Positions 8,155 to 19,116 of a DNA stretch of 64,000 nt are shown here, piece by piece (position 1 is the first letter of the stretch; each line of letters opens with the position of its first letter). The position numbers and the translations under genes were made by a program. The notes under the pieces were generated by a model. It saw only the letters and a list, made by a program, of their open reading frames with translations, was not told the DNA's origin and made no database searches. This DNA comes from Chloroflexota bacterium (GTDB taxonomy: Bacteria > Chloroflexota > Dehalococcoidia > UBA2979): positions 433 to 64,432 of the forward strand of contig JAQBZW010000001.1 of assembly GCA_027622315.1 (NCBI GenBank), read 5' to 3'.

Positions 8155-8336
8155 GCGTACCCCATCTCTGCCCCGTGACCGTCATGTTCCGTGCGCGATC
8201 AGCCCGGGTCAACGCGACGCGCCCCCGCACCATGCGCGATGCGCAAGCGGCACGCACGCGCCGATGATCATCGCGAGCAGCCCCGCGACGGGCCACGGCC
8301 TGGCGCGTGCAACTTCGCTCATCGCAGGAGCACCAG

Positions 8337-9155
8337 ATGACGCCCGCGCCCACCGTCCTGCCCGTCCTGCCCGTCCTGCCCGCCGCGCAAGCGCGCGCGC
8401 TCACACTCGCCTCGCGCCCCGACGTCGGGATCCCGGAGCTCGCGGGAGTCGTCGAGAGTGACCCGGCGCTCACGATCGCGGTGCTCCGTGCCGCCAACAC
8501 GGCGAGCCAGGCGCCGGTGCAGCGCGTGCTGACGGCGAGCGACGCGATCGTGCGCATCGGGCTGAACGCCACTCGCCGTGTGGTCACCGCGACCGCGACG
8601 AACAGCGCGTTCGGTGACATCGCGCGCGCGGGCATCGACCTCGATGCGTTCTGGGATCACACGCTCGCGACCGCGCTGCTCGCGGACGCCTCCGCGTGGC
8701 CGAACGGGCCGCGCACAGAGGCCTTCACGACCGGACTGCTCCACGACATCGGTCGGCTGGCGCTCGCCAGCGCCGATCCCGAGCGCTACCGCTTCGTCGT
8801 CCGTCGGGTGCAGGGCGGCGCGTCGCCCGACGAGGCCGAGCGCGCGGTCTTCGGCGTCGACCACATCACGGTCGGGCGAGACGTGGCCGCGGCCTGTGGC
8901 CTGCCGCCCCAAATGGTCGACGCGATCGCACAGCACCACGTGGGCGACGGCTCGGCGCTCGCGTGGGTGACGTTCAACGGCCGCTCGCTCGCAGTCATGC
9001 TCGGCTTCGGCGACGGCGTCAGCGTGGCCACCCCGGCGGTCCCGGTCGAAGTCGGCCCCGGTGGCGCCGTCGTGCGCTCGCTGGGCGGGTCGGCGGGCAT
9101 CCGTATGAAGATCGCCTGGTACCGCGGCCTCTTCGTCGCACGCGCCGCCGCCTGA
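8337..9155 (+). CDS. HDOD domain-containing signalling protein
   Basis: LPAAQARALTLASRPDVGIPELAGVVESDPALTIAVLRAANTA... is HDOD-like. GGAG lies 8 nt before ATG 8337. Confidence 0.75.
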   Translation: MTPAPTVLPVLPVLPAAQARALTLASRPDVGIPELAGVVESDPALTIAVLRAANTASQAPVQRVLTASDAIVRIGLNATRRVVTATATNSAFGDIARAGIDLDAFWDHTLATALLADASAWPNGPRTEAFTTGLLHDIGRLALASADPERYRFVVRRVQGGASPDEAERAVFGVDHITVGRDVAAACGLPPQMVDAIAQHHVGDGSALAWVTFNGRSLAVMLGFGDGVSVATPAVPVEVGPGGAVVRSLGGSAGIRMKIAWYRGLFVARAAA

Positions 9156-9186: not shown

Positions 9187-11478
9187 TTGAAAGCGCCACG
9201 CGGTAGAATCCCTTCGAGAGCCACCACACTCGCGAGGGGACCCGCACTCATCATTTCGACCCGGTGTGCTTCCTGCGACGCCACCTTCGCCGGCGATGTG
9301 GCGTTCTGCCCAGAGTGCGGCGAGGTCGCCCAGGCGGCGCCGCCACATCCGGGCGACCTGCCGGCGCCGGCACCCGCGCCACGCCCGCTTCCACGCCCCG
9401 CGGCTACGCCGGCGACAGCGGGTGCGCCGGCACCCGCCCGCCTCCCCACCGAGCTCTACCGGTATAGACAGCGCCTGCGCGACACCTTCGGCTACCCCGA
9501 CTTCCGCGACGGGCAGGCCACGGTGCTCTCCGCGCTCGCCACCAGCGACGTGCTCGCCGTCATGCCCACCGGCAGCGGGAAGAGCCTCTGCTACGTGCTG
9601 CCCGCGCTCGAGGTGGGCCGCACGGTGGTCGTGTCGCCGCTGATCGCGCTCATGCAGGATCAGGTCGAAGGCCTGCAGGCGGCCGGCGTGGCGGCGACCT
9701 TCATCAATTCGAACGTCGGCCGCGACGAGCTGAATCGTCGCTACGCGGACTTCATCGCGGGACGCACCTCGCTGCTCTACGTCGCGCCCGAACGCTTCGC
9801 GAACGCCCGCTTCACAGAGGGCTTGCGGCGCGCCGGCGTGAACCTCTTCGCTGTGGACGAAGCGCACTGCATCTCGGAGTGGGGCCACAACTTCCGCCCT
9901 GACTACCTCCTGCTCGGCGCGATCCGCGCGCGGCTCGGCAATCCGCGCACGCTCGCGCTCACCGCCACCGCCAATCCGCGCGTGCGTCGCGACGTGCTCG
10001 CGCGGCTCGGCCTCAGCGGCCGCGCGCAGGAAGTCGTCACCACCGTGGACCGGCCGAACCTGCTGTACTCGGTGCACTCCATCGGCAGCCCGGCGGATCG
10101 CACGCGCTGGGTGATCGACTACGCACAGGCGCGTCCGGGCCAGGCCGGCATCGTGTACGCGCGCACGCGCCGTTCCGTCGACGAGCTCGCCAGCGCGTTG
10201 CAGGCAGCCGGTGTCCAGGCAGCCGCGTACCACGCGGGCCTCGGGCGCGAAGAACGCTCGACCGTGCAGCGGCGCTTCACGGTCGGCGACCTCCCGGTGA
10301 TCGTCGCGACCAACGCCTTCGGCATGGGCGTGGACAAGCCCGACGTCCGTTATGTCGTGCACTTCAACATGCCCGCCCGCCTCGAGTCCTACTACCAGGA
10401 GGCCGGCCGCGGGGGACGTGACGGCGACCCCGCAGAATGCACGCTGCTCTTCGCACCCTCCGATCGACGCGTGCAACAGCGCATGATCGAACAGTCGCAC
10501 CCGGACGCCGCGGCCGTGCGCGACACGTGGCGCCGCTGGGTGACGCTTGCCCGCAGCAGCGATGGGCGCCTGCCGAGCGGCCTCGCCGATGGGGACGTGG
10601 AGCGCTTCGCGATCACGGTCGCCGCCCTCCGCCACTCCGGCCTGATCGAGCCGGTCGCGCTGAGCCTCACGAGCCTCGACCCCGACGCGGCGATCGATCT
10701 GTCGAGCATCACCGAGCACCGGGCGTACGCCGAGGCGCGGCTACGCGAGATGTCGGAGTACGCCGAGACGGACCACTGCCGGCGCGCGCTCATCCTCCGC
10801 TACTTCGGCGAGACGCCGGAGGAGAGCTGCGAGCGTTGTGACATCTGCCTGGGTACCGCGACCACCGAGCGCGCGGACTACCCGTCGGATCTCTTCGAGG
10901 GACTGCTCGATCTGCGCGAACAGATCGCTCGCCAGAGCGGACGGGACCCGTCGCGCGTATTCGAACTGCGCACCGCACGCGAACTGGCCGAACAGCGGCC
11001 GCGCACCCGCGAGCAGCTGCTCGCCGTCTGGGGCATGGGTGAGCGGCGCGCGGACTGGTTCGGCCGGGAGCTGGTCGCCGCGATCGACGAGTGGAACGCG
11101 GCGCACCCCGACGCGCCGCCGCCGAGCGTCGCCCCGCCCGCGTCCGGGCGCCGCAGCTCAGGCGGGAGCGGCCGCGCCGCTCGCAGTGACAGGGATGCGC
11201 GCGACCCCGGCATCGAGGCCGTGCGCGACGATCCGTTGTTCGACGCTCTGCGGCGCTGGCGCTCGGGGCGCGCTCGCGAGGACGGCGTGCCGGCGTACGT
11301 GCTCTTCTCGGACCGCACCATGCGGGAGCTGGTCGCCGTGCGGCCCGGGTCGCGCGACGAACTGCTCGGGGTATGGGGACTCGGCGAGGCACGCGTGGAA
11401 CGCTTCGGGGAAGCGCTGCTCGGCGTAATCCGCGACCCCGAGACGGCGCCACCGGAACGCGGCGAGCCGGGGCGATGA
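9187..11478 (+). CDS. recQ: ATP-dependent DNA helicase RecQ with an N-terminal Zn-ribbon and two C-terminal HRDC domains
   Basis: CASCDATFAGDVAFCPEC is a zinc ribbon. DGQATVLSALATSDVLAVMPTGSGKSLCY and DEAHCISEWGHNFRPDY are helicase motifs I and II. CRRALILRYFGE...CERCDIC is the RQC Zn site. Two HRDC-like segments follow. The TTG start at 9187 is uncertain. Confidence 0.9.
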   Translation: MKAPRGRIPSRATTLARGPALIISTRCASCDATFAGDVAFCPECGEVAQAAPPHPGDLPAPAPAPRPLPRPAATPATAGAPAPARLPTELYRYRQRLRDTFGYPDFRDGQATVLSALATSDVLAVMPTGSGKSLCYVLPALEVGRTVVVSPLIALMQDQVEGLQAAGVAATFINSNVGRDELNRRYADFIAGRTSLLYVAPERFANARFTEGLRRAGVNLFAVDEAHCISEWGHNFRPDYLLLGAIRARLGNPRTLALTATANPRVRRDVLARLGLSGRAQEVVTTVDRPNLLYSVHSIGSPADRTRWVIDYAQARPGQAGIVYARTRRSVDELASALQAAGVQAAAYHAGLGREERSTVQRRFTVGDLPVIVATNAFGMGVDKPDVRYVVHFNMPARLESYYQEAGRGGRDGDPAECTLLFAPSDRRVQQRMIEQSHPDAAAVRDTWRRWVTLARSSDGRLPSGLADGDVERFAITVAALRHSGLIEPVALSLTSLDPDAAIDLSSITEHRAYAEARLREMSEYAETDHCRRALILRYFGETPEESCERCDICLGTATTERADYPSDLFEGLLDLREQIARQSGRDPSRVFELRTARELAEQRPRTREQLLAVWGMGERRADWFGRELVAAIDEWNAAHPDAPPPSVAPPASGRRSSGGSGRAARSDRDARDPGIEAVRDDPLFDALRRWRSGRAREDGVPAYVLFSDRTMRELVAVRPGSRDELLGVWGLGEARVERFGEALLGVIRDPETAPPERGEPGR

Positions 11479-11608
11479 ACCCCGCGTCGCCGTACGCGGG
11501 CACCCCCGACTTGCGCGGGTGTTCACACGTCGGGCATCATTAGCGAAGTTGACGCTGCTCTTTCGGCAGCACTCGAGCAACACTCGATACGACAGGGGAG
11601 TGACCCGC

Positions 11609-11950
11609 ATGGACCTGACCATCACGGACATCGCCAAGGAGCGCCTCAGCACCCTCGTCGAAGAGCGGAAGACCAGCCCGGCACAGGGCATCCGTATCTT
11701 CACGCAGTCCGGCGGCTGCGGTTGCAGCGGTCCCCGCTTCGGCATGGGCCTCGACGAGCCGACCGGCGAAGATGCCGTGCTGACGATCGGGACGCTCACG
11801 TTCCTCGTCGACCCGACCTCGGCGGACATCCTCGAAGGCGCCTCGATCGACTTTGTCGACGACGTCCTCCAGTCCGGCTTCGCGATCGACGCACCAAAGG
11901 CGAAGGAGATGGGCGGCGGCTCCTGCGGCTGCGGCGGCGGCGCGCACTAA
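11609..11950 (+). CDS. HesB/IscA-family iron-sulfur cluster insertion (A-type carrier) protein
   Basis: MDLTITDIAKERLSTLVEE...GIRIFTQSGGCGCSGPRFGMGLDE...IDFVDDVLQSGFAIDAPK...SCGCGG. AGGGGAG lies 8 nt before the ATG. Confidence 0.8.
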   Translation: MDLTITDIAKERLSTLVEERKTSPAQGIRIFTQSGGCGCSGPRFGMGLDEPTGEDAVLTIGTLTFLVDPTSADILEGASIDFVDDVLQSGFAIDAPKAKEMGGGSCGCGGGAH

Positions 11951-12000
11951 CCCCCGGGCGGCGGCACCAGCCGTCGTCTCCACGATCGCTACGATGACAG

Positions 12001-12030
12001 CCGGCCCGAATGGGCCGGCTGTTTGCTTGT
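12001..12030 (+). terminator. intrinsic terminator-like hairpin CCGGCCC-GAAT-GGGCCGG followed by a T-rich tract
   Basis: ccggcccgaatgggccggctgtttgcttgt, directly after hesB. The ATP-grasp gene's SD and ATG follow. Confidence 0.5.
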
Positions 12031-12040
12031 CGGAGGCGCC

Positions 12041-13276
12041 ATGCCCCGCGTGCTCTTGCTGATCCCCACGAGGAGCTATCGCGCGCCGGACTTCATGGAC
12101 GCGGCGGCGAAGCTCGGCATCGAGGTCGTCGTCGGCTCAGACGCCCGCAGCCCGCTCGAGGCGCTCAACGGCGGACGCACCGTCGGGCTCGACTTCGCGC
12201 ACCCCGACACCGGTGCGAGCGAGATCGAGGCGTTCGCGCGGACGCACCCGCTGGACACGATCGTCGCCGTCGACGACGCGGGGGCGCTCATTGCGGCGCG
12301 CGCCGCGCGCCGGCTGGAGCTCCCGTACAACCCCGTCTCCGCGGTCGAGGCGACGCGCAACAAGTCGCTGCTGCGCGAGCGTCTCGCCGCCGCGGGGCTG
12401 CCCTCGCCGGCCTTCCATGTCCTGCGCACGAGCGACGATCCCCGCCCCGCGGCGAACGCGCTGGCGTACCCCGTGGTGCTGAAGCCGCTCGCGCTGTCGG
12501 CCAGCCGCGGCGTGATCCGCGCCGACGACGCCGACGCCTTCGTGGACGCCTTCGCGCGCGTGTGCGCGATCCTCGCGAGCGATGAGGCGCGCGCCGAGTG
12601 CGGCGCGGAGCTGGCCGACCGTGTGCTCGTGGAGGGCTACATCCCCGGCACGGAAGTCTCGCTCGAAGGGTTGCTCGACCATGGCCGGCTGCGTGTGCTC
12701 GCGTTGTTCGACAAGCCCGATCCGCTCGATGGGCCGTTCTTCGAAGAGACGATCTACGTCACGCCGTCACGATTGCCGGACGCGGACCAACGACTGGTCG
12801 CGGAGACGGCCGAGCGTGCGTGTGCGGCGCTCGGGCTCGTCGACGGACCGGTGCACGCCGAGCTGCGGCTGAACGCGGACGGGGCGTACGCGATCGACAT
12901 CGCGGCGCGCTCGATCGGCGGATTGTGTGCGCGCACGCTCTCGTTCGGGACGGGCATGTCGCTCGAGGAGCTGCTGCTCCGGCACGCGATCGGCGCCGAC
13001 GTGCCGTCGTTCGAACGGCAGTCCGCCGCTGCGGGCGTGATGATGATCCCGATCCCCGCCGGCGGCACGCTGCGCGGCGTCGCTGGCGTCGCCACCGCCG
13101 AGGCGGTCCCGCTGATCGAGTCCGTCACGATCTCGATGCACGTGGGCAGCCGCATCACGCCGCTGCCCGAGGGCAGCGAGTACCTGGGCTTCATCTTTGC
13201 GCGCGGCGAGGGGCCCGCTGCCGTGGAGGCCGCGCTGCGCTCCGCACACGCGGCGCTGCGATTCGAGATCGCGTAG
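12041..13276 (+). CDS. ATP-grasp domain ligase (carboxylate-amine ligase family, substrate unknown)
   Basis: MPRVLLLIPTRSYRAPDFMDAAAKLGIEVVVGSD...TRNKSLLRERLAAAGLPSPAF...YPVVLKPLALSASRGV... has ATP-grasp architecture. GGAGG precedes the ATG. Confidence 0.7.
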   Translation: MPRVLLLIPTRSYRAPDFMDAAAKLGIEVVVGSDARSPLEALNGGRTVGLDFAHPDTGASEIEAFARTHPLDTIVAVDDAGALIAARAARRLELPYNPVSAVEATRNKSLLRERLAAAGLPSPAFHVLRTSDDPRPAANALAYPVVLKPLALSASRGVIRADDADAFVDAFARVCAILASDEARAECGAELADRVLVEGYIPGTEVSLEGLLDHGRLRVLALFDKPDPLDGPFFEETIYVTPSRLPDADQRLVAETAERACAALGLVDGPVHAELRLNADGAYAIDIAARSIGGLCARTLSFGTGMSLEELLLRHAIGADVPSFERQSAAAGVMMIPIPAGGTLRGVAGVATAEAVPLIESVTISMHVGSRITPLPEGSEYLGFIFARGEGPAAVEAALRSAHAALRFEIA

Positions 13277-13331
13277 CCGGGAGCCCGCGCCGTGTCTCGC
13301 GCGCGGCGTATCGCGCGCCCGGCGGGACGCG

Positions 13332-13951
13332 TCAGCCCGCGACGGGGCCGGGGTCGAGATGGCTGAGGAGCACCACGTCTGCGCCCAGCGCCCGCAGTGG
13401 CTCCACCGCCGGCGCGTCTGCGAACTCCTCGGCCTGTCCGGCGATCAGCGTCCGCCCGCCCACACCCTCGACAAGCACGCACTGGTGTCCGGGCGTGTGC
13501 CGGGCGCCGACACGAGCGCGAGCCCCGGTGCGAGCTCCACGTCGCCAGCATGCTCGACGTAGCGAGCGCCCGGGAACCAGACCCACTCGGCGATCGTGTA
13601 GCGAGGCTCGCGCGCCGCGGCGACCTCCGCCGCCTGCACGTGGATCGGGACCTCAGGGAAGGCGCTGTTCCCGCCGGCGTGGTCGAAGTGCAGGTGCGTG
13701 TTCACGATCGCCTCGATGTCGCCGGGCGCCACGCCATGCTCGGCGAGCGCCCCAGCGAGCGGCCGTCGAACCGGCCGGTACTGCTCGTCGATGAACGCCG
13801 ATCCCTCGCCCACGCCCGTGTCGACCAACCATGGCCGCGCGCCCGCGCGGAGCACGAGGTAGCCATAAATCGGAAGCACGAGGTTCGGCGTGGGATGCCA
13901 ATCGGGAGTCGTGACCTCAGCGAGGCGGAGCGGGATGACTCGGTTGGTCAC
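13332..13951 (-). pseudogene. MBL-fold metallo-hydrolase (lactonase/glyoxalase-II-like), frameshifted near 13500
   Basis: The 5' part (GTG 13951, GGGAGG SD) gives ...VNTHLHFDHAGGNSAF...ELAPGLALVSAPG. The continuation HTPGHQCVLVEGVGGRTLIAG...VLLSHLDP is in the -1 frame (track ORF 13332..13586). One missing G in a CCCGG(G) run breaks SAPG|HTPGH. Confidence 0.6.
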
Positions 13952-13976
13952 GAGGCGACCTCCCGCCGGCGCAGGA

Positions 13977-15542
13977 CTAGAGCCCGAGCGCCCGATCGAG
14001 CGGCGCGAGCTGCGCCTCCGTTGGCTCGGCACAGCAGAACCACGATTCGGTCAGGCCAGGCACGGTGGCGCCGGGCTGTGCGGCCACCGTGACCGGACCC
14101 TCCACGCCGAGCAGGTGCCGGTACGCCGCCGCCTTCACGTGACGGAAGATCTCGATCGCGTCAGTGTCATCGTCACAGCCCTCGCACGCCGCGGACTCGA
14201 CGATCGTCGAGAGCTCGCGCTGAAGCGCGTCGAGACGCGGGTCGGCCGCCGCCCACGTGTACGTCAGCGTGTCATCGTCGAACGGGCCGAGCCGGCCCTC
14301 GCAGTCGAGGCGCGCGATCAACGGCGACCCGGGCGGGACCAGCAGGCGGATCGCGTACTGCACCGGCTGTACGTTCGCGACGAGCCCGTGGCGCTCGATG
14401 AACGCCAGCAGGTCGAGGAAGTCCACCGCAGTCGTCCACGGCATGTGCGCCACCCAGGTCGGTCGCAGCGCGATGCCAGCGGCACTCGCGAGCGCGAGCG
14501 CGCGCTCCATGTCAGCCAGCGTGTGGCCCTTTTCGAGGATCGCGAGCGTCTCGTCGTTCGTCGATTCGAACGCGCACGTCACGAACAGACAGCCGAGCGC
14601 GCGCAGTCGCGGCAACACGTCGGCGTGCTCGATCAGGTGCTCGACCTTGATCGTCGCGTCGAAGGTGACCGCGGGGTACTGCTCATGGAGCGACTCGGCG
14701 AGTGAGAGCGCATGCGGCGCGGCGTTCAGGAAATCGGGGTCCCCGAAGGTGATGTGCTCGGCGCCGGCGGCCACGAGCTGATCGATGTCGGCCAGCACGG
14801 TCTCGCGCGCGACGAGCCGCAGCCGCCCGCCGTACACCGGCGTGAGCGGGCAATGCGTGCACTGGTGCGCGCACCCGCGGGTCGCCTCCACGTAGCCCAC
14901 GAGCCGGCGTGCCGTTCCGTGCGCGAGCCGCGCGTATGCGTCGAGCGGCGGCAGCCCGTGCCGATCCGGCACCGGGAAGTCCTGTCGTGCGAACGCCGGC
15001 TCCGCGCCGACACCCGGCAGCGCGCCTGCCGGCGTTGCTCCCGCAGCGCGCGCGGCGAGCTGCGCGGCGAACGCCACGAGCGCGGGCTCGTATTCGCCGC
15101 CGATCACCGCGTCGGCGAGCCCGTCGCGCATGAGGCGCGCGTACAGCGGCGACGCGTACAGCCCGTAGAAGGCGATGCGCAGCGGGAGCGCGCGCCGCCG
15201 CAGCCGTGTCGCGAGATCGATGCCGACGCGCGCCGCCGTGTGCATGGGCACGGAGATGGCCACGAGGTCGACGTCGTCGAAGCGCTCGCGCTCCGGCGAC
15301 TCCACGGCGAGATCCAGCGTGCGCACGTCGTGACCGGCGCGCCGCAGCGCAGCGGCCGGCGCGGCCAGCCCGAGCGGCTGGTGACCGAGCTCATACGTCG
15401 AGACGAGCAGCACGCGCAATGCGCGCGCGTCCCCCACCGGGCGAGGCGATCGCAGCGATCGCAGCGATCGCAGCGATCGCAGCGACGCGTCGAGCGCGAG
15501 CGACCGCACGGCCGATCTCGCCGGCGTCGACGACGCGGTCAT
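13977..15542 (-). CDS. B12-binding domain / radical SAM domain protein
   Basis: The N-terminal part, RVLLVSTYELGHQPLGLAAPAAALRRAGHDVRTLDL, is a cobalamin-binding Rossmann-type domain. YVEATRGCAHQCTHCPL carries the CX3CX2C radical SAM motif. The C-terminal roughly 120 aa include CEGC and WFCC. The ATG lies 7 nt after the nfuA-like stop. Confidence 0.8.
   Translation of the reverse strand: MTASSTPARSAVRSLALDASLRSLRSLRSLRSPRPVGDARALRVLLVSTYELGHQPLGLAAPAAALRRAGHDVRTLDLAVESPERERFDDVDLVAISVPMHTAARVGIDLATRLRRRALPLRIAFYGLYASPLYARLMRDGLADAVIGGEYEPALVAFAAQLAARAAGATPAGALPGVGAEPAFARQDFPVPDRHGLPPLDAYARLAHGTARRLVGYVEATRGCAHQCTHCPLTPVYGGRLRLVARETVLADIDQLVAAGAEHITFGDPDFLNAAPHALSLAESLHEQYPAVTFDATIKVEHLIEHADVLPRLRALGCLFVTCAFESTNDETLAILEKGHTLADMERALALASAAGIALRPTWVAHMPWTTAVDFLDLLAFIERHGLVANVQPVQYAIRLLVPPGSPLIARLDCEGRLGPFDDDTLTYTWAAADPRLDALQRELSTIVESAACEGCDDDTDAIEIFRHVKAAAYRHLLGVEGPVTVAAQPGATVPGLTESWFCCAEPTEAQLAPLDRALGL
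15448..15483. repeat. tandem repeat (GATCGCAGC)x4 inside the 5' end of the radical SAM ORF, encoding (SLR)n
   Basis: Four perfect 9-bp units plus one degenerate unit, read from the sequence. Confidence 0.8.
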
Positions 15543-15549
15543 CGGTGGG

Positions 15550-16176
15550 CTATTTCTTCGCCGGCTCGTAGTACGGGTTGTCGCCCGAGGCGTGGTCGGT
15601 CGAGTCGAGCACCTGCTCGATCCCGGGGACCTGTTCCCGCACGGCGACTTCGATGCCCTGCTTGAGGGTGACGTTCGCCATGCCGCAACCCTGGCAGCCG
15701 CCGCCGAACTCGACGTAGGCGATCGGCCCCTCGACGGCGAGCAGGTTGACGACGCCGCCGTGCGCGGCGATGGCCGGGTTGATCTGCTCGTCGAAGAGAC
15801 GCTGGATCATCTCTTCGGTCTCGCTCAGCCAGAGCGGGTTGGGGTTCGTGAACTCGAGCCCGGAGCGGTCCGGACCCTTGTGTGCGTAGTTCACCTCGAC
15901 GCCGTCGAGGTAGCGCGCGTTGCGGCGCTCGATGTAGACGCGGAGCCCATCCTCGGTCTCGACGACGAGGTCGTCTTCGACCTGCGCGCCGTCCTCGACC
16001 AGGCTCAGGATGTGCTGGAACTGACCTTCCGCACGTCCCATGATCTGGAGCCGCAGCCCGGCGACCGGGTTCGGGTGACTGCCGATCACATCGGAGAGCT
16101 TCTCGGCGGCGGCGTCCGTGAAGGTGACCTTCGGAAGCTGCATGGGTTCGTCCGTCTGCTGCGGTTCATTCGTCAT
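15550..16176 (-). CDS. NfuA-like Fe-S biogenesis protein (degenerate A-type carrier domain plus C-terminal Nfu domain)
   Basis: MTNEPQQTDEPMQLPKVTFTDAAAEKL... C-terminal ...NLLAVEGPIAYVEFGGGCQGCGMANVTLKQGIE is Nfu-like with a CxxC motif. GAGGGGG lies upstream of the ATG. Confidence 0.7.
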   Translation of the reverse strand: MTNEPQQTDEPMQLPKVTFTDAAAEKLSDVIGSHPNPVAGLRLQIMGRAEGQFQHILSLVEDGAQVEDDLVVETEDGLRVYIERRNARYLDGVEVNYAHKGPDRSGLEFTNPNPLWLSETEEMIQRLFDEQINPAIAAHGGVVNLLAVEGPIAYVEFGGGCQGCGMANVTLKQGIEVAVREQVPGIEQVLDSTDHASGDNPYYEPAKK

Positions 16177-16347
16177 CTGGCCCTGCCCCCTCGGCGTCAC
16201 CGATTCTGCCAGCGTCGCCTGCACAGCGTAATTGACGAAGGCGTCAGCGCGCGAATCCAGCAGCGAACGCTCGCGGTCGATCACGCCACCGGCGGGCAGA
16301 TGCCGCGTGCTCGGGTGCGGTACCGACGGCGATCGACTGCTCGCGGA

Positions 16348-17061
16348 TCACAACTCGCCGAGGTAGGCGCGGCGCACGCTGTCGTTCGCGCTCAGTTCCG
16401 GGCCGGTACCCGAGAGCACGATCTGGCCCGACTCAACGACGTAGCCGCGGTTGGAGATCGCAAGCGCGCTGGTGGCGTTTTGCTCGACGAGCAGGATCGT
16501 CGTGCCCTCGCGGTTGATCTCGCGGATGCGTTCGAAGATCGCCTGCGTGAGGATCGGGGAGAGGCCCATCGACGGTTCGTCGAGCAGAAGCAGGACCGGC
16601 CGCGCCATGAGCGCGCGGCCGATCGCGAGCATCTGCTGCTCGCCGCCGGAGAGCGTGCCGCCCGTCTGATGTGCGCGCTCACGGAGGCGAGGGAACGTCT
16701 CGAACGCGCGCTCGAGGTCGCGCGCGATCTCGGGGCCGCGCGGGCGCAGGTACGCCCCCATCTCGAGGTTCTCGGTCACGGTCAAACGAGCGAAGATGCC
16801 GCGGCCCTCGGGCACGTGCGCGATGCCCGCTGCCGCCACCCGATGTGGCGCCTCGTTGGTGATCGGCCGACCGCGGAACAGCACCCCGCCGTCGGTCACA
16901 CGGACCAGTCCCGAAATCGCTCGCAGTGTGGTGCTCTTGCCCGCGCCGTTCGAGCCGATCAGACAGACGGTCTCGCCTTCATCGACCTCGATGCTGATGC
17001 CGCGGACGGCGCGGATGGCGCCGTACCCGGCATGAACGGCTTCAAGCGCGAGGAGCGGCAT
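16348..17061 (-). CDS. livF: branched-chain amino acid ABC transporter ATP-binding protein LivF
   Basis: GSNGAGKSTTL (Walker A), LSGGEQQMLAIGRAL (signature), LLLLDEP (Walker B). Confidence 0.85.
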   Translation of the reverse strand: MPLLALEAVHAGYGAIRAVRGISIEVDEGETVCLIGSNGAGKSTTLRAISGLVRVTDGGVLFRGRPITNEAPHRVAAAGIAHVPEGRGIFARLTVTENLEMGAYLRPRGPEIARDLERAFETFPRLRERAHQTGGTLSGGEQQMLAIGRALMARPVLLLLDEPSMGLSPILTQAIFERIREINREGTTILLVEQNATSALAISNRGYVVESGQIVLSGTGPELSANDSVRRAYLGEL

Positions 17062-18001
17062 GACCGTCTTCCTCACCGCCCACCGGCGTACCGCTCCCGA
17101 GGTACGCCTCGATCACGGCAGCATCGCGCTGGATCTCGCGCGGCGCGCCCTCCGCGATCTTGCGGCCGTAGTCGAGCACGGTGATGCGCTCGCACACGCC
17201 CATGACCACGCTCATCGCGTGCTCGATCAGCAGCACGGTCACGCCGAGCTCGTCGCGCATGCGACGTACGAGCTGCACGACGGCTGCCGATTCGGCGGGA
17301 TTCATCCCGGCGGTCGGTTCGTCGAGCAGCAGCAGGCGCGGTTCGGTCGCGAGCGCGCGCGCGAGCTCGAGCCGGCGTTGGTCGCCGTACGGGAGGTTGC
17401 GCGCCAGCACGTTCTCGCGACCGCTCAGACCGACGAAGCGGAGCAGCTCCGCGCAACGCGCGACCGCCTCGGACTCCGCAGCGCGCACCGCCGGCGGACG
17501 AATAATCGCGCCGGCGACCTCGAGCACGCCATGCGTGAGCGCGGCCGGAACGCCCGGAAGCAGCTGGATCGCCGAGAGCACGCGGTTGGTGCGATGGCGA
17601 CGCGCATCGGCGCGCCGCTCACCCGACCGCGCGCCGATACGCGCGTGATGCCCGACGAGCACGTTTTCGAGCACGGTCATCGCCGAGAAGAGGCGGATGT
17701 TCTGGAAGGTGCGGGACACCCCGGACTCGGCGATCTCGTGGCGGTACAGCCCGTCGATGCGCTGGTCGTCCAGCGTGATCATGCCGGCCGTCGGCCGGTA
17801 GTAGCCGCTCACGACGTTGAACAGCGTCGTCTTGCCCGCACCGTTCGGACCGATCAGCCCGTGGATCGCCCCCGGGGCGACGTCGAGTTCGACGTCGTCG
17901 AGCGCGACGAGGCCCTCGAAGCGCATGGTCAGCCCGCGCACCGCGAGCCGCGGCGTCGCCTCCCCGTCGGCGGTCGTCGCGGCCACAGTTGCGAGCGTCA
18001 T
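17042..18001 (-). CDS. livG: branched-chain amino acid ABC transporter ATP-binding protein LivG
   Basis: MTLATVAATTADGEA...GPNGAGKTTLFN...LPYGDQRRLELARAL...LLLLDEP. There is an ATGA overlap with the livM stop. The 5' 261 codons of the track ORF are discarded. Confidence 0.85.
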   Translation of the reverse strand: MTLATVAATTADGEATPRLAVRGLTMRFEGLVALDDVELDVAPGAIHGLIGPNGAGKTTLFNVVSGYYRPTAGMITLDDQRIDGLYRHEIAESGVSRTFQNIRLFSAMTVLENVLVGHHARIGARSGERRADARRHRTNRVLSAIQLLPGVPAALTHGVLEVAGAIIRPPAVRAAESEAVARCAELLRFVGLSGRENVLARNLPYGDQRRLELARALATEPRLLLLDEPTAGMNPAESAAVVQLVRRMRDELGVTVLLIEHAMSVVMGVCERITVLDYGRKIAEGAPREIQRDAAVIEAYLGSGTPVGGEEDGHAAPRA

Positions 18002-19116
18002 GCCGTCGACTCGTGACGCTCGGGCAGCCGCGCCTGCGGGCGACGGGCGGGGAACAGCCCCTCGGGCCGGAGCGCCATCACGGCGACCAGCAGCACGCCG
18101 AACACAATGAAGCGCGCGGATGCCACCTGCCGACCCCAGTCGGTGGTGTCCGCGAAGGGAACCGCGGGGTTGATCACGGAGAGCAGGCGTTCCGTCTCCG
18201 AGAACTGCATCACCTCCGGGAGGCCGATCAGGATCAGCGCCCCGAAGAGCACGCCGGGCGTGCTGCCCATGCCCCCGATCACGACGATGCTCAGCACGTT
18301 GATGGACACCGCGAGCGTGAACGAGGAGGGGTTCACGAACTGGAAGAAGCCCGCGAACACGAGGCCACCGAACGAGCCGATCGACGCGCCCATCGCGAAC
18401 GCCATCAGCTTGTATTTCACGGTGTTCACGCCCATGCCGGCGGCCACGTCTTCGTCCTCGCGGATCGCCTCCCACGCACGGCCCATGCGCGACGCGCGCA
18501 TGCGACCGACCGCGGTCGCGATCAGGAACGCGCTCAGCACGAGCAGCCAGTACCACTGGTCGAGCGAACGCAGCACCCAGCCCCCGAGCTCGGGACGGGG
18601 GATGTTGAACAGCCCCTGCGCGCCGTTCGTCAGACCGCGCACGTTGAGCAGCAGGATGCGGATGATCTCGCCGAACCCGAGCGTGACGATCGCGAGATAG
18701 TCCCCGCGGAGCGGCAGCACAAACAGGCCGAGCATCACCCCCACCGCTGCGCCGAGCGCGAGCACGACGGGGATCGCGAGCCACCAGTTCAGGTCGGCCT
18801 GGAGCGCAGGCGAAGCCGGGGACGCGAGGATCGCGTAGGTGTACGCGCCCGTCGCGAAGAACGCGACGAAGCCGAGGTCGAGCAGTCCCGCGTAACCGAC
18901 GACGATATTCAGCCCGAGACCGAGCACGACGAAGATGCCGACGAGCACGAGGATGCGCAGCCAGCGCGAATCGACCATCGGCCAGAGCGGGACGCTGAGC
19001 AGCAGCACGAGTAGCAGCAGCCGCGCGACCGGCAGGCGCGTGCGCTCCTCCGCGGCGTGCAGGGCTTCGCGAAGCGCCGCGAACGGCGCGCGCGTTCGCT
19101 CCATCGCCTCACGCAC
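17998..19116 (-). CDS. livM: branched-chain amino acid ABC transporter permease LivM
   Basis: A multi-TM permease: ...LGLNIVVGYAGLLDLGFVAFFATGAYTYA... It overlaps the livH stop. Confidence 0.85.
   Translation of the reverse strand: MREAMERTRAPFAALREALHAAEERTRLPVARLLLLVLLLSVPLWPMVDSRWLRILVLVGIFVVLGLGLNIVVGYAGLLDLGFVAFFATGAYTYAILASPASPALQADLNWWLAIPVVLALGAAVGVMLGLFVLPLRGDYLAIVTLGFGEIIRILLLNVRGLTNGAQGLFNIPRPELGGWVLRSLDQWYWLLVLSAFLIATAVGRMRASRMGRAWEAIREDEDVAAGMGVNTVKYKLMAFAMGASIGSFGGLVFAGFFQFVNPSSFTLAVSINVLSIVVIGGMGSTPGVLFGALILIGLPEVMQFSETERLLSVINPAVPFADTTDWGRQVASARFIVFGVLLVAVMALRPEGLFPARRPQARLPERHESTA

What the first reader, a model, noticed from the sequence alone, without database searches (positions are those of the whole stretch)
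11609..16176. Compact module: NfuA-like, then B12-binding radical SAM (translationally coupled), then a frameshifted MBL hydrolase, with a convergent ATP-grasp ligase and HesB/IscA
On the minus strand the nfuA-like gene ends 7 nt before the ATG of a 521-aa B12-binding radical SAM enzyme (CX3CX2C plus an N-terminal cobalamin domain and a Cys-rich C-terminus). An MBL-fold gene follows 25 nt later. The convergent plus strand holds a HesB/IscA A-type Fe-S carrier, a terminator, and an ATP-grasp ligase. Two dedicated Fe-S delivery proteins flank a B12-rSAM. Class-B radical SAM methyltransferases and ATP-grasp ligases are hallmark tailoring enzymes of RiPP and other natural-product pathways. No precursor-peptide ORF was found, so the substrate is unknown. 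It could instead be cofactor or lipid modification.
Basis: partly seen in the sequence, partly recalled or inferred. Interest (0 to 1): 0.7.

Follow-up and report, generated by a model that had tools for sequence, protein, structure and literature searches.

The report
ArsL-like radical SAM, ligase, Nfu module
This is one copy of a widespread but uncharacterised gene set (a radical enzyme related to the one that makes the arsenic antibiotic arsinothricin, an amino-acid ligase and an iron-sulfur cluster carrier) that probably builds an unknown modified amino acid or dipeptide; the broken hydrolase gene in the middle is a passenger.

Summary
The sequence observation holds at the stated coordinates. 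The radical SAM (rSAM) protein is not a class-B methyltransferase. It is a full member of NCBIfam NF040546, "CUAEP/CCAEP-tail radical SAM (seleno)protein" (583 bits, cutoff 500), here in the Cys form. The literature held here calls this family uncharacterised. [quoted passage not shown]

In 45 flank-controlled loci from at least 8 phyla, the same L-amino-acid-ligase-type ATP-grasp lies within 4 kb of the rSAM in 64%. An Nfu-type Fe-S carrier does so in 60%. Gene orders vary, and one genome encodes an ATP-grasp-rSAM fusion. The carrier occurs in three different architectures. The MBL gene is absent from all 160 related loci and sits in a variable slot. HesB is syntenic in the two close relatives examined; elsewhere stand-alone A-type carriers appear only sporadically. 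No conserved precursor peptide exists.

Best model, inferred and not shown: ACP transfer to a soft atom held by Cys318 and the CC/CU tail, then ligation of the new amino acid by the ATP-grasp, with Nfu or HesB resupplying the cluster. The window adds a new member of a catalogued family. The system itself is undescribed and testable.

The parts
11609..11950 (+). HesB/IscA A-type Fe-S carrier (113 aa), upstream of the ATP-grasp gene. Probably an accessory part of the module in this lineage.
   Evidence: It matches Pfam Fe-S_biosyn at 51 bits and TIGR00049 at 70.6 bits, above the 58.8 cutoff. It holds the same position in close relatives L081 and L082 and in L103. Stand-alone A-type carriers flank the rSAM in L041 and L050. 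Outside those cases it is not widely conserved: 5 of 45 loci.
11996..12023 (+). 12-bp GC-rich hairpin with a GAAU loop, followed by UUUGCUUG, between HesB and the ATP-grasp. A possible weak intrinsic terminator or attenuator.
   Evidence: The 95-nt intergenic stretch 11951-12045 that contains it folds with MFE -51.3 kcal/mol and z = -3.3, and 0 of 200 shuffles fold as well. The strict terminator scan does not call it.
12041..13276 (+). L-amino-acid-ligase-type ATP-grasp enzyme (411 aa from ATG 12041; the mechanical ORF starts at TTG 12023). Conserved partner of the rSAM.
   Evidence: Domains are ATPgrasp_N, ATP-grasp_4 and LAL_C2. The best solved relative is the L-amino-acid ligase BL00235 (3VOT), E = 1.4e-40 over the full length, followed by BacD. 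Homologues of 44-78% identity lie within 4 kb of the rSAM in 29 of 45 flank-controlled loci. It is fused to the rSAM in P0377/L168.
13332..13951 (-). Metallo-beta-lactamase-fold (AiiA-like lactonase) pseudogene carrying a 1-nt frameshift near 13497-13500. A passenger, not part of the module.
   Evidence: Two frames are needed to read it. Joining them raises Lactamase_B from 55.6 to 75.9 bits. No homologue is found in 160 related loci. In relatives the same slot is empty (L001-L003), holds a Usp gene (L082) or holds two transferase genes (L081).
13977..15542 (-). CCAEP-tail radical SAM protein (521 aa), NF040546 family and ArsL-related. Core enzyme of the module.
   Evidence: NF040546 scores 583.1 bits against a cutoff of 500. 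ArsL NF040542 scores 291.8 bits against a cutoff of 450. The AF2 model has pLDDT 87, and the best PDB neighbours are AprD4, OxsB and TsrM.
14850..14873 (-). CX3CX2C motif (C224, C228, C231) that binds the radical SAM [4Fe-4S] cluster.
   Evidence: The sequence reads CAHQCTHC. These Cys are conserved in 97% of 105 family members.
14022..14036 (-). CCAEP tail motif (C503, C504). Position 504 is selenocysteine (in-frame TGA) in most relatives.
   Evidence: Of 79 GTDB loci carrying the motif, 53 have TGA at this codon followed in frame by the conserved AEPTxxQ, and 26 have Cys. Most database homologues are truncated at ...WFC. C318 (codon 14589-14591) is the only other conserved non-cluster Cys, at 90%.
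15446..15508 (-). 9-bp tandem repeat in 7 copies, encoding an (SLR)n expansion in the disordered N-terminal extension of the rSAM.
   Evidence: TRF score 82. pLDDT is below 50 for residues 1-37. Relatives P0001 and P0002 share the MTASSTPA start but have fewer repeats.
15550..16176 (-). NfuA-type Fe-S carrier (208 aa): a Cys-free A-type N-domain plus a NifU C-domain with CxxC. Its stop codon lies 7 nt before the rSAM start.
   Evidence: Pfam NifU scores 70 bits and Fe-S_biosyn 33.5 bits. TIGR03341 scores 100.5 bits, below its 269 cutoff. The 7-nt gap is also seen in L081, and the genes overlap in L082. An Nfu-type gene lies within 4 kb of the rSAM in 27 of 45 loci and within 4 kb of the ATP-grasp in 24 of 31 loci.

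Best explanation
The window carries the Cys form of a conserved three-part system from a high-GC Chloroflexota (Dehalococcoidia-like) genome. The parts are a CUAEP/CCAEP-tail radical SAM enzyme, an L-amino-acid-ligase-type ATP-grasp enzyme and an Nfu-type [4Fe-4S] carrier, with an extra A-type carrier (HesB) in this lineage.

**Proposed mechanism**
1. NfuA, translationally coupled to the rSAM, together with HesB loads or reloads the rSAM's [4Fe-4S] cluster.
2. The rSAM works like its nearest characterised relative ArsL. It cleaves SAM at the C-gamma-S bond and gives MTA plus a 3-amino-3-carboxypropyl (ACP) unit. It transfers ACP to a soft heteroatom (metalloid, chalcogen or metal). That atom is held by the flexible C-terminal Cys-Cys (elsewhere Cys-Sec) tail together with the conserved Cys318. 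The product is a gamma-substituted 2-aminobutyrate, that is, a Met/Glu analogue.
3. The ATP-grasp ligase condenses this amino acid with a second amino acid, or otherwise amidates it. In some lineages an adjacent MFS transporter exports the product.

**What is shown and what is inferred**
- Shown: family membership, conservation of the triad, the fusion, the Sec/Cys tail, and the passenger status of the MBL pseudogene.
- Inferred: the chemistry in steps 1-3 and the nature of the acceptor atom.
- My confidence is about 0.95 for family membership and about 0.9 for functional coupling of rSAM, ATP-grasp and Nfu. It is about 0.4 for ArsL-like ACP transfer followed by ligation.
For: **Family membership**
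- NF040546 scores 583 bits (cutoff 500). ArsL is the second-best model at 292 bits and covers residues 44-456.
- The tail reads ...LTESWFCCAEPTEAQL.

**Sec/Cys tail and conserved Cys**
- 53 of 79 species-level loci read TGA at the second tail Cys, and the conserved in-frame sequence continues after it.
- The only conserved Cys outside the cluster motif are C318 (90%), C503 and C/U504 (96%). That makes three thiol(ate)/selenolates, the same number that binds As(III) in ArsL (bioRxiv 10.64898/2026.04.29.721666; bioRxiv 10.1101/2024.02.01.577332).

**Coupling to the ATP-grasp**
- The ATP-grasp lies within 4 kb in 29 of 45 flank-controlled loci. These come from Chloroflexota, Acidobacteriota, Actinomycetota, Planctomycetota, Nitrospirota, Rokubacteria, KSB1 and Gammaproteobacteria, in convergent, co-directional upstream and co-directional downstream arrangements.
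- In the reverse test, the rSAM lies near the ATP-grasp in 16 of 31 metagenome loci, and Nfu in 24 of 31.
- Percent identities of the two proteins to the window copies correlate at r = 0.82 over 74 loci.
- A single 850-aa ORF fuses the ATP-grasp (with LAL_C2) to the rSAM, with a divergent Nfu gene beside it (P0377/L168).

**Ligase character of the ATP-grasp**
- Its nearest solved relative is BL00235, an L-amino-acid ligase that makes Met-Gly and Met-Met. Methionine shares the ACP backbone (PMC6920838).

**Fe-S supply**
- Three non-orthologous carrier types sit beside the rSAM in different phyla.
- YggX Fe(II)-trafficking proteins and SufT/IscU-like proteins also occur nearby.

**Soft-metal and organometallic flavour**
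- An rSAM-MerB fusion (P0243) has the MerB C-A-x-D motif intact, and MerB-like genes lie near the rSAM in L031, L072 and L024.
- A SaoD/DsrE-family protein (NF040913, 194 bits against a cutoff of 152) is found in 7 of 45 loci.
- DF-family (seleno)protein and the Cys-rich DUF169 also recur.
- Haft (bioRxiv 10.1101/2022.07.06.499078) notes that the CU dipeptide is otherwise typical of HgcA, MerT and SAO proteins.

**Export**
- An ATG22-like MFS transporter is adjacent in 6 Blastocatellia loci. An MFS gene lies downstream of the ATP-grasp in L163.
Against: - No biochemical data exist for any member. Whether SAM is cleaved to ACP or to 5'-deoxyadenosyl cannot be read from sequence, and the ArsL papers give no sequence determinant.
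- The ArsL defining tail (RCCLKC) is absent. The ArsL model scores below its cutoff.
- Recurrent-family clustering of the 160 loci turned up no ars gene family. Arsenic is therefore probably not the substrate, and the acceptor atom is unknown.
- In a third to a half of flank-controlled loci the ATP-grasp and rSAM are not adjacent.
- The strong Fe-S-carrier association fits a sacrificial-cluster sulfur-insertion enzyme at least as well.
- Selenocysteine is more often a redox catalyst than a substrate-binding ligand.
- The fusions are single sequences. In L029 the two genes are in the same frame, separated by only one stop codon, so a fusion can arise trivially.
Confidence: 0.4

Rival explanations
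1. Sulfur (or selenium) insertion enzyme of the LipA/BioB/MiaB type. The rSAM makes a canonical 5'-deoxyadenosyl radical. C318 plus the CC/CU tail hold an auxiliary Fe-S cluster or a persulfide, which is consumed as the sulfur donor. Nfu, IscA and YggX rebuild it after each turnover. The ATP-grasp makes or ligates the thiolated substrate, for example a low-molecular-weight thiol dipeptide.
For: - Late-acting Fe-S carriers of three architectures, plus YggX, SufT-like and IscU/SufU-like proteins, lie beside the rSAM or the ATP-grasp.
- NfuA-type carriers are reported to regenerate the sacrificial auxiliary cluster of lipoyl synthase (e.g. PMC9585516, found).
- There are three conserved extra Cys/Sec.
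- MiaB and LipA appear among the fold neighbours.
- DsrE-family neighbours are sulfur-relay-like.
Against: - The nearest characterised homologue, ArsL, uses its Cys tail to bind substrate, not a cluster.
- To my knowledge, adjacent Cys-Cys or Cys-Sec as ligands of one cluster, and Sec as an Fe-S ligand, are without precedent.
- The DsrE-like neighbour belongs to the SaoD branch that Haft associates with metal transport rather than sulfur relay.
- A dedicated NfuA could simply protect an oxygen-labile cluster in aerobes.
Confidence: 0.2
2. Diphthamide-like macromolecule modification. The rSAM attaches ACP to a carbon or heteroatom of a protein or RNA. The ATP-grasp then amidates or extends the ACP carboxylate, as Dph6 does after Dph2.
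For: - ACP-radical chemistry is known for Dph2 as well as ArsL.
- The system sits among core genes (liv ABC transporter, recQ) in Dehalococcoidia.
- The module has no recognisable small-molecule tailoring genes.
Against: - The ATP-grasp has the complete L-amino-acid-ligase architecture and is closest to free-amino-acid ligases.
- No conserved candidate target gene or peptide lies nearby.
- MFS exporters in several lineages point to a small secreted product.
Confidence: 0.1
3. One reading: a cobalamin-dependent class-B radical SAM methyltransferase and an ATP-grasp ligase acting as tailoring enzymes of a RiPP or other natural-product cluster.
For: - There is a Pfam B12-binding hit at 40.7 bits.
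- OxsB, TsrM, TokK and CysS are among the fold neighbours.
- ATP-grasp ligases do occur in RiPP pathways (general knowledge).
Against: - All curated B12-rSAM families score 61 bits or less, against cutoffs of 251-775 bits.
- The best fold neighbour is the cobalamin-free AprD4.
- ArsL homologues are reported not to bind cobalamin (PMC12931638).
- No conserved small ORF is found in 160 loci; only one lineage has a nearby 42-57-aa peptide.
- No SPASM, RRE, protease or other RiPP hallmark genes were found.
- The ATP-grasp is of the free-amino-acid-ligase type.
Confidence: 0.04
4. No shared function. The genes are neighbours by chance or by lineage-specific synteny only.
For: - RecQ, HDOD and the liv ABC genes are also syntenic in close relatives. 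Part of the local order is therefore plain inheritance.
- The rSAM stands without the ATP-grasp in about a third of loci.
Against: - Adjacency survives across at least 8 phyla despite rearranged order and orientation, whereas RecQ, MBL and liv do not.
- There is a natural fusion protein.
- The genes overlap or are translationally coupled in many lineages.
Confidence: 0.03

Closest known systems
ArsL (NF040542), the arsinothricin-biosynthesis radical SAM enzyme of the arsQML cluster
   Same: - It is the second-best curated model, at 292 bits, aligned over residues 44-456.
- It has the same layout: an N-terminal Rossmann-like pseudo-B12 domain, a CX3CX2C radical SAM core, and a flexible C-terminal tail with vicinal Cys.
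- It has three conserved non-cluster Cys.
- ArsL does not bind cobalamin and makes ACP rather than 5'-dA.
   Different: - The window protein scores below the ArsL cutoff of 450.
- Its tail is WFC[C/U]AEPT, not RCCLKC. One of the three Cys (C318) sits in the barrel rather than the tail.
- Two thirds of members are selenoproteins.
- The partners are an L-amino-acid ligase and Fe-S carriers, not ArsM and ArsQ.
- There is no arsenic-resistance context.
NF040546, CUAEP/CCAEP-tail radical SAM (seleno)protein (NCBIfam; Haft 2022 preprint)
   Same: The window protein is a bona fide member: 583 bits against a cutoff of 500, with the CCAEP tail.
   Different: The family is catalogued but described as uncharacterised. 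The conserved ligase/Nfu partnership, the fusions and the third conserved Cys reported here are not in the literature I could search.
L-amino-acid ligases (BL00235, BacD/YwfE, DdaF, RizA, TabS)
   Same: - It has the same three-domain architecture (ATPgrasp_N, ATP-grasp_4, LAL_C2).
- BL00235 matches at E = 1.4e-40 over the full length.
- The invariant ATP-grasp catalytic motifs are kept.
- Several known LALs attach a carrier amino acid to a toxic amino-acid warhead (own knowledge).
   Different: - It scores far below every curated LAL equivalog: BacD 55 against 850, DdaF 54 against 840.
- It forms its own large clade, with 8000 or more hits, tied to an rSAM and Nfu.
- Its substrates are unknown.
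NfuA with LipA or MiaB (Fe-S carrier dedicated to radical SAM enzymes)
   Same: - It has a Cys-free A-type N-domain plus a CxxC Nfu domain, as in E. coli NfuA.
- It is physically and translationally coupled to a radical SAM gene.
   Different: - It is below the NfuA equivalog cutoff: 100 against 269.
- In other phyla NFU1-type or plain IscA carriers take its place.
- There is no evidence yet that the client enzyme consumes a cluster.
AprD4 (PDB 6FD2), a cobalamin-independent radical SAM diol dehydratase
   Same: It is the best solved structural neighbour (Foldseek E = 1.8e-18, TM 0.62/0.70) and the only PDB sequence hit. It shares the Rossmann-like N-domain that does not bind B12.
   Different: It is only 20% identical. 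It has no Cys/Sec tail, uses different chemistry (5'-dA-initiated dehydration) and sits in an aminoglycoside cluster.
SAO and HgcAB organometallic systems (Haft 2022)
   Same: - The rare Cys-Sec dipeptide is shared.
- SaoD/DsrE-family and MerB-like proteins occur as neighbours or as a fusion.
   Different: - These are unrelated catalytic proteins.
- The window locus itself has none of the SaoD or MerB neighbours.
- The link is circumstantial.

Membership tests
NF040546 CUAEP/CCAEP-tail radical SAM (seleno)protein | Whole-protein HMM score at or above the curated cutoff (500 bits) | tested here: met
   583.1 bits, E = 3.7e-175, model positions 1-467 of 468.
NF040546 CUAEP/CCAEP-tail radical SAM (seleno)protein | C-terminal C-[U/C]-A-E-P motif | tested here: met
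   WFCCAEPTEAQL at residues 501-512. The Sec form is found in 53 of 79 related loci.
NF040546 CUAEP/CCAEP-tail radical SAM (seleno)protein | CX3CX2C radical SAM cluster motif | tested here: met
   C224, C228 and C231. Pfam Radical_SAM scores 48.5 bits.
ArsL (NF040542, arsinothricin biosynthesis) | HMM score at or above the cutoff (450 bits) | tested here: not met
   291.8 bits.
ArsL (NF040542, arsinothricin biosynthesis) | RCCLKC (CCxxC) arsenite-binding tail | tested here: not met
   The tail is CCAEP, with no third tail Cys. A third conserved Cys is at position 318 instead.
ArsL (NF040542, arsinothricin biosynthesis) | Genomic association with arsM/arsQ or other ars genes | tested here: not met
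   Recurrent neighbours in 160 loci are the ATP-grasp, Nfu, DUF169, YggX, SaoD-like proteins and MFS transporters. No ars family recurs.
ArsL (NF040542, arsinothricin biosynthesis) | Cleavage of SAM to MTA plus ACP, and C-heteroatom bond formation | not testable with these tools
   This needs enzymology. The ArsL papers define no sequence determinant.
Class-B cobalamin-dependent radical SAM methyltransferases | Membership of a curated B12-rSAM family (HpnR, TIGR04295, BchE, PhpK, KedN5, etc.) | tested here: not met
   The best is HpnR at 61 bits against a cutoff of 650. TIGR04295 scores 42 against 400, and BchE 33 against 481.
Class-B cobalamin-dependent radical SAM methyltransferases | Cobalamin binding by the N-terminal domain | not testable with these tools
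   There is only a Pfam fold-level hit at 40.7 bits. The best fold neighbour, AprD4, lacks B12. The literature states that ArsL homologues do not bind it.
L-amino-acid ligase (ATP-grasp) | ATPgrasp_N + ATP-grasp + LAL_C2 architecture and similarity to a solved LAL | tested here: met
   Scores are 44.4, 103.4 and 54.0 bits, all above their cutoffs. BL00235 matches at E = 1.4e-40 over residues 21-403.
L-amino-acid ligase (ATP-grasp) | Membership of a characterised LAL equivalog (BacD, DdaF) | tested here: not met
   55 bits against a cutoff of 850, and 54 against 840.
L-amino-acid ligase (ATP-grasp) | ATP-dependent dipeptide formation from free amino acids | not testable with these tools
   This needs an enzyme assay.
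NfuA (TIGR03341) | Degenerate (Cys-free) A-type N-domain plus Nfu C-domain with CxxC | tested here: met
   Pfam Fe-S_biosyn covers residues 52-150 and NifU covers 160-225. The only Cys are in GGGCQGCG.
NfuA (TIGR03341) | Equivalog HMM cutoff (269 bits) | tested here: not met
   100.5 bits.
RiPP biosynthetic cluster | Conserved precursor-peptide ORF next to the tailoring enzymes | tested here: not met
   Small-ORF clustering over 160 loci plus the window finds no broadly conserved peptide. Gaps between the rSAM and ATP-grasp genes are often below 100 bp.
RiPP biosynthetic cluster | SPASM/twitch or RRE domain on the rSAM | tested here: not met
   Only B12-binding and Radical_SAM are found by Pfam. 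The C-terminal CxxC (453/456) is not conserved.
Metallo-beta-lactamase-fold lactonase (AiiA-like) | Intact ORF covering the whole fold | tested here: not met
   The ORF is frameshifted. AiiA scores 75 bits against a cutoff of 375. The joined frames cover Lactamase_B positions 13-157 of 196.

The most novel reading that the evidence does not exclude
The triad is a widespread, so far undescribed pathway. In it a second family of non-canonical, ArsL-like radical SAM enzymes, mostly selenoproteins, forges a carbon-heteroatom bond between the ACP moiety of SAM and a soft element held on a Cys-Sec/Cys-Cys tail. The bond could be C-S, C-Se, C-As/Sb or even C-metal. A dedicated L-amino-acid ligase then turns the resulting non-proteinogenic amino acid into a dipeptide, such as an antimetabolite, metallophore or low-molecular-weight thiol/selenol. 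The product would be made by Chloroflexota, Acidobacteriota, Actinomycetota and others in soils and oceans.
Probability: 0.25. Interest if true: 0.85.

Novelty: new variant of a known kind. Interest (0 to 1): 0.62.

Why it matters
- According to a 2026 preprint held here, ArsL is the only enzyme with the canonical radical SAM fold known to cleave SAM to an ACP unit. Only one product, arsinothricin, is known from it.
- NF040546 is a much larger sister family. It has more than 7,800 90%-identity clusters at E <= 1e-10 among the 8,000 candidates scored and 383 50%-identity clusters at E <= 1e-30.
- If these enzymes also do ACP chemistry, non-canonical SAM cleavage would be common rather than exotic. 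An abundant unknown metabolite, or family of metabolites, would await discovery in uncultured soil and marine bacteria.
- The analysis gives concrete handles for experiments: a Cys-form enzyme (this window) that can be expressed in E. coli without Sec machinery, three candidate substrate-binding residues, an obligate-looking ligase partner, a natural fusion protein and a matched Fe-S carrier for reconstitution.
- It also corrects automatic labels ("B12-binding radical SAM", "YgiQ", "biotin carboxylase") that hide the system.

Tried and rejected
1. **RiPP precursor search.** I clustered all 18-75-aa ORFs not overlapping core genes in 160 loci plus the window. Apart from Arg-rich low-complexity noise, the clusters were out-of-frame shadows of conserved genes, a CDGSH protein and one lineage-specific 42-57-aa peptide.
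2. **Terminators and RNA elements.** The strict promoter/terminator scan found none in 11300-16500. Rfam at gathering thresholds over the whole window found only two tRNAs, Val and Met, and no tRNA-Sec.
3. **Conservation of other window genes.** I tested MBL, RecQ and LivF as possible module members. None is conserved beyond close relatives.
4. **Literature.** "CUAEP" is found only in Haft's preprint, which calls the family uncharacterised. Searches combining radical SAM, ATP-grasp, NfuA and selenocysteine, and searches for ArsL with the ACP radical, found no characterisation of this family. The JACS 2025 ArsL paper (PMID 40490932) is not held.
5. **DUF169.** The literature gives only weak hints: a STRING link to YedE, and a neighbour of Nitrospina hgcAB.
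6. **Solved ArsL structure.** No ArsL-family sequence was found in the PDB copy; the only hit is AprD4. I therefore could not compare active sites. The AF2 model gives no coordinates to the sandbox, so Cys318-to-tail distances could not be measured.
7. **Neighbour census.** I tried to annotate every neighbour ORF by Pfam through one large pseudo-alignment and abandoned it as impractical. I used cross-locus clustering plus targeted HMM scans instead.
8. **HIP1-like GCGATCGC enrichment.** There are 26 sites against 15.5 expected, but 4 of them come from the tandem array inside the rSAM gene. I did not pursue this.
9. **Further ATP-grasp-rSAM fusions in Actinomycetota loci.** L029 has the two genes in the same frame separated by a single TAG. 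L053 and L064 overlap in different frames. Apart from L168, the three loci inspected showed tight coupling, not fusion.

Full report
**1. Observation**

The window has about 70% GC.

On the minus strand:
- An nfuA-like gene lies at 15550-16176. It ends EPAKK-TAG, 7 nt before the ATG of a 521-aa radical SAM (rSAM) gene at 13977-15542.
- 25 nt after the rSAM TAG, a GTG preceded by GGGAGG opens a metallo-beta-lactamase-fold ORF.
- That ORF is broken. One frame ends ...LVSAPGTRPDTS...*, and another continues HTPGHQCVLVE...SHLDPGPVAG*.
- Joining the two frames raises the Pfam Lactamase_B score from 55.6 to 75.9 bits and extends the match. This indicates a 1-nt deletion near 13497-13500.

On the plus strand:
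- A HesB/IscA gene lies at 11609-11950.
- A stable 12-bp hairpin lies at 11996-12023. The 95-nt intergenic stretch containing it folds with z = -3.3. The strict terminator scan does not call it.
- An ATP-grasp gene follows. Its real start is most likely ATG 12041, which gives 411 aa like its homologues.

**2. What the rSAM is**

Pfam sees only B12-binding plus Radical_SAM. NCBIfam is far more specific:
- NF040546, "CUAEP/CCAEP-tail radical SAM (seleno)protein", scores 583 bits against a cutoff of 500.
- The second-best model is ArsL (NF040542), at 292 bits against a cutoff of 450, aligned over residues 44-456.
- Every curated cobalamin-dependent family (HpnR, TIGR04295, BchE, PhpK, KedN5) scores 61 bits or less.

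The tail reads ...LTESWFCCAEPTEAQL. Most database homologues stop at ...WFC because the next codon is TGA. In 79 species-level loci carrying the motif, 53 have an in-frame TGA followed by the conserved AEPTxxQ, and 26 have Cys. The window therefore carries the Cys form of a mostly selenoprotein family.

Across 105 members the only conserved Cys are these:
- the cluster triad 224/228/231 (97%);
- C318 (90%);
- C503 and C/U504 (96%).

The window's CxxC at 453/456 is not conserved.

The AF2 model is confident (pLDDT 87). It has a disordered N-terminal extension and a moderately confident tail. Its best solved neighbour is the cobalamin-independent AprD4, followed by OxsB, TsrM, MgmA and MiaB. AprD4 is also the only PDB sequence hit.

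From the literature:
- ArsL cleaves SAM to MTA plus a 3-amino-3-carboxypropyl (ACP) unit, binds arsenite with its C-terminal Cys tail, and forms an Fe-ACP organometallic species.
- ArsL homologues do not bind cobalamin.
- Haft's 2022 preprint lists NF040546 as uncharacterised and points out how rare the CU dipeptide is.

**3. Is the neighbourhood a module?**

I fetched 80 loci from species-representative genomes using an rSAM alignment. They span Chloroflexota, Acidobacteriota, Actinomycetota, Planctomycetota, Nitrospirota, Gemmatimonadota, Rokubacteria, Poribacteria, KSB1, a Gammaproteobacteria MAG and others.

tblastn with the window proteins gave these counts among the 45 loci that have at least 4 kb on both sides of the rSAM:

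| Neighbour within 4 kb of the rSAM | Loci (of 45) |
|---|---|
| ATP-grasp orthologue (44-78% identity) | 29 |
| Nfu-type gene | 27 |
| DUF169 | 8 |
| YggX | 7 |
| DsrE-like | 7 |
| MBL | 0 |
| RecQ | 0 |

The arrangement differs by lineage:
- Dehalococcoidia: Nfu -> rSAM <- ATP-grasp, as in the window.
- Solirubrobacterales and Thermoleophilia: Nfu <- | ATP-grasp -> rSAM -> | <- DsrE-like.
- Blastocatellia: ATP-grasp -> rSAM -> Nfu -> | <- ATG22-like MFS.
- Others: rSAM -> DUF169 -> ATP-grasp.

The reverse test used 80 metagenome loci fetched with the ATP-grasp alignment. In the 31 loci with at least 2.5 kb on both flanks, the rSAM is present in 16 and Nfu in 24. No other family recurs comparably.

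Further support for coupling:
- The two proteins' identities to the window copies correlate at r = 0.82 over 74 loci.
- The exhaustive representative search revealed a single 850-aa ORF, P0377, that fuses the ATP-grasp (with LAL_C2) to the rSAM. A divergent Nfu gene lies beside it (L168).
- In L029 the two genes are in the same frame, one stop codon apart.

The closest relatives of the window share its full synteny (L081 at 80% identity, L082 at 73%):

liv ABC -> NfuA -> rSAM -> [slot] <- ATP-grasp <- HesB <- RecQ <- HDOD

The slot between the convergent genes varies:
- two transferase genes in L081;
- a Usp gene in L082;
- nothing in L001-L003;
- the MBL pseudogene in the window.

The MBL is therefore a passenger.

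**4. The partners**

*ATP-grasp.* It has the full L-amino-acid-ligase architecture. Its best solved relative is BL00235 (E = 1.4e-40), a ligase that makes Met-Gly and Met-Met. It belongs to no curated equivalog. The ATP-grasp catalytic motifs are invariant in its clade.

*Fe-S carrier.* The carrier beside the rSAM comes in three architectures:
- NfuA-type in Chloroflexota and Actinomycetota;
- Nfu_N-NifU (NFU1-type) in Acidobacteriota;
- stand-alone A-type carriers in a Gammaproteobacteria MAG and a Bacteroidetes MAG.

YggX Fe(II)-trafficking proteins, a SufT/DUF59-like protein and IscU/SufU-like proteins also occur. Recruitment of non-orthologous carriers argues for a real need for dedicated cluster supply. 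It also makes the window's HesB a plausible accessory.

*Minority neighbours with a soft-metal or organometallic flavour:*
- a SaoD/DsrE-family protein (NF040913, 194 bits against a cutoff of 152);
- DF-family (seleno)protein;
- MerB-like lyases in L031, L072 and, weakly, L024;
- an rSAM-MerB fusion (P0243) that keeps the MerB C-A-x-D motif, with a second MerB gene on the same contig.

MFS exporters sit next to the cluster in Blastocatellia and in L163.

**5. Mechanism**

The best-supported model is by analogy with ArsL:
1. NfuA and HesB supply the [4Fe-4S] cluster.
2. The rSAM transfers ACP from SAM to a soft atom presented by C318 and the CC/CU tail. This is a three-thiolate site, like ArsL's but built differently.
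3. The ligase couples the resulting Met/Glu-like amino acid to a partner amino acid.
4. The product is exported in some lineages.

Family membership, gene coupling and the Sec/Cys tail are shown. The chemistry is inferred. The acceptor atom is unknown, and arsenic is unlikely because no ars gene family recurs nearby.

The main rival is a LipA/MiaB-like sulfur insertion with a sacrificial cluster rebuilt by Nfu. It explains the Fe-S carriers well. It requires a Cys-Sec pair to ligate a cluster, for which I know no precedent. A diphthamide-like macromolecule modification is possible but lacks any conserved target. The class-B methyltransferase/RiPP reading is essentially excluded.

**6. Novelty**

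The rSAM family is catalogued, so the window adds a member rather than a new family. I found no report of its function, of the ligase/Nfu partnership, of the fusions or of the third conserved Cys.

The family is large:
- more than 7,800 90%-identity clusters at E <= 1e-10 among the 8,000 candidates scored;
- 383 50%-identity clusters at E <= 1e-30.

I rate it a new variant of a known kind: an ArsL-type system with a different tail, different partners and an unknown substrate. Interest is moderately high because the hypothesis can be tested directly with the Cys-form enzyme encoded here.

Noticed in passing
window 15446-15508 (-): A 9-bp tandem repeat (GCGATCGCA, 7 copies, TRF score 82) lies inside the 5' end of the rSAM gene. 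It encodes an (SLR)n expansion in a disordered N-terminal extension. The closest relatives share the MTASSTPA start but have fewer repeats, so the copy number looks variable.
   Followed up: partly
P0243 (JGI metagenome 3300047160, 8.3-kb contig; no DNA held): A CCAEP-tail rSAM is fused at its C-terminus to a MerB (alkylmercury lyase) domain with the catalytic C-A-x-D motif intact. A second stand-alone MerB gene lies 4 kb downstream.
   Followed up: partly
L072 10001-16900 (Actinopolyspora xinjiangensis DSM 46732); L031; L024: In these loci the rSAM lacks an adjacent ATP-grasp. Instead it lies near MerB-like lyase genes. In L072 it also lies near a DAP-decarboxylase-like PLP enzyme, a SaoD/DsrE-like protein and pyridine-nucleotide-disulfide oxidoreductases, possibly MerA-like.
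   Followed up: partly
L168 8001-10553 (GCA_004366215.1): One 850-aa ORF fuses the ATP-grasp (with LAL_C2) to the rSAM. Its tail is the variant CCAAPTS, and a divergent NifU-domain gene lies immediately upstream.
   Followed up: yes
L071, L089, L099, L104, L108, L117, L120, L122, L127, L128, L135, L145 (about 2 kb upstream of the ATP-grasp): One soil lineage carries a CDGSH-type Fe-S protein (about 68 aa). Next to it is a conserved 42-57-aa peptide, MWEWFSPSRGRTVTS...DDWVLLTDVEPD, of unknown role. This is the only small conserved ORF found near the module.
   Followed up: no
window 13277-13976 versus L081, L082 and L001-L003: The gap between the convergent rSAM and ATP-grasp genes is a variable insertion slot. 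It holds the MBL pseudogene here, a Usp gene in L082 and an NTP-transferase/CDP-alcohol-transferase/HAD fusion plus an NTP-transferase in L081. In L001-L003 it is essentially empty.
   Followed up: yes
L031, L037, L067: DF-family (seleno)protein (NF049942, 93 bits against a cutoff of 70) occurs within a few kb of the rSAM in three unrelated lineages.
   Followed up: no
L123, L151, L154, L158 and relatives: In one lineage the ATP-grasp keeps its divergent NfuA neighbour, but an NDH-2-like FAD oxidoreductase follows it instead of the rSAM. The rSAM is presumably encoded elsewhere.
   Followed up: no
window 8307-9155 and 9187-11478; 16348-19116: The flanking genes are an HDOD-domain protein, RecQ helicase and a liv-type branched-chain amino-acid ABC transporter. 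They are syntenic with close Dehalococcoidia relatives but unrelated to the module.
   Followed up: partly
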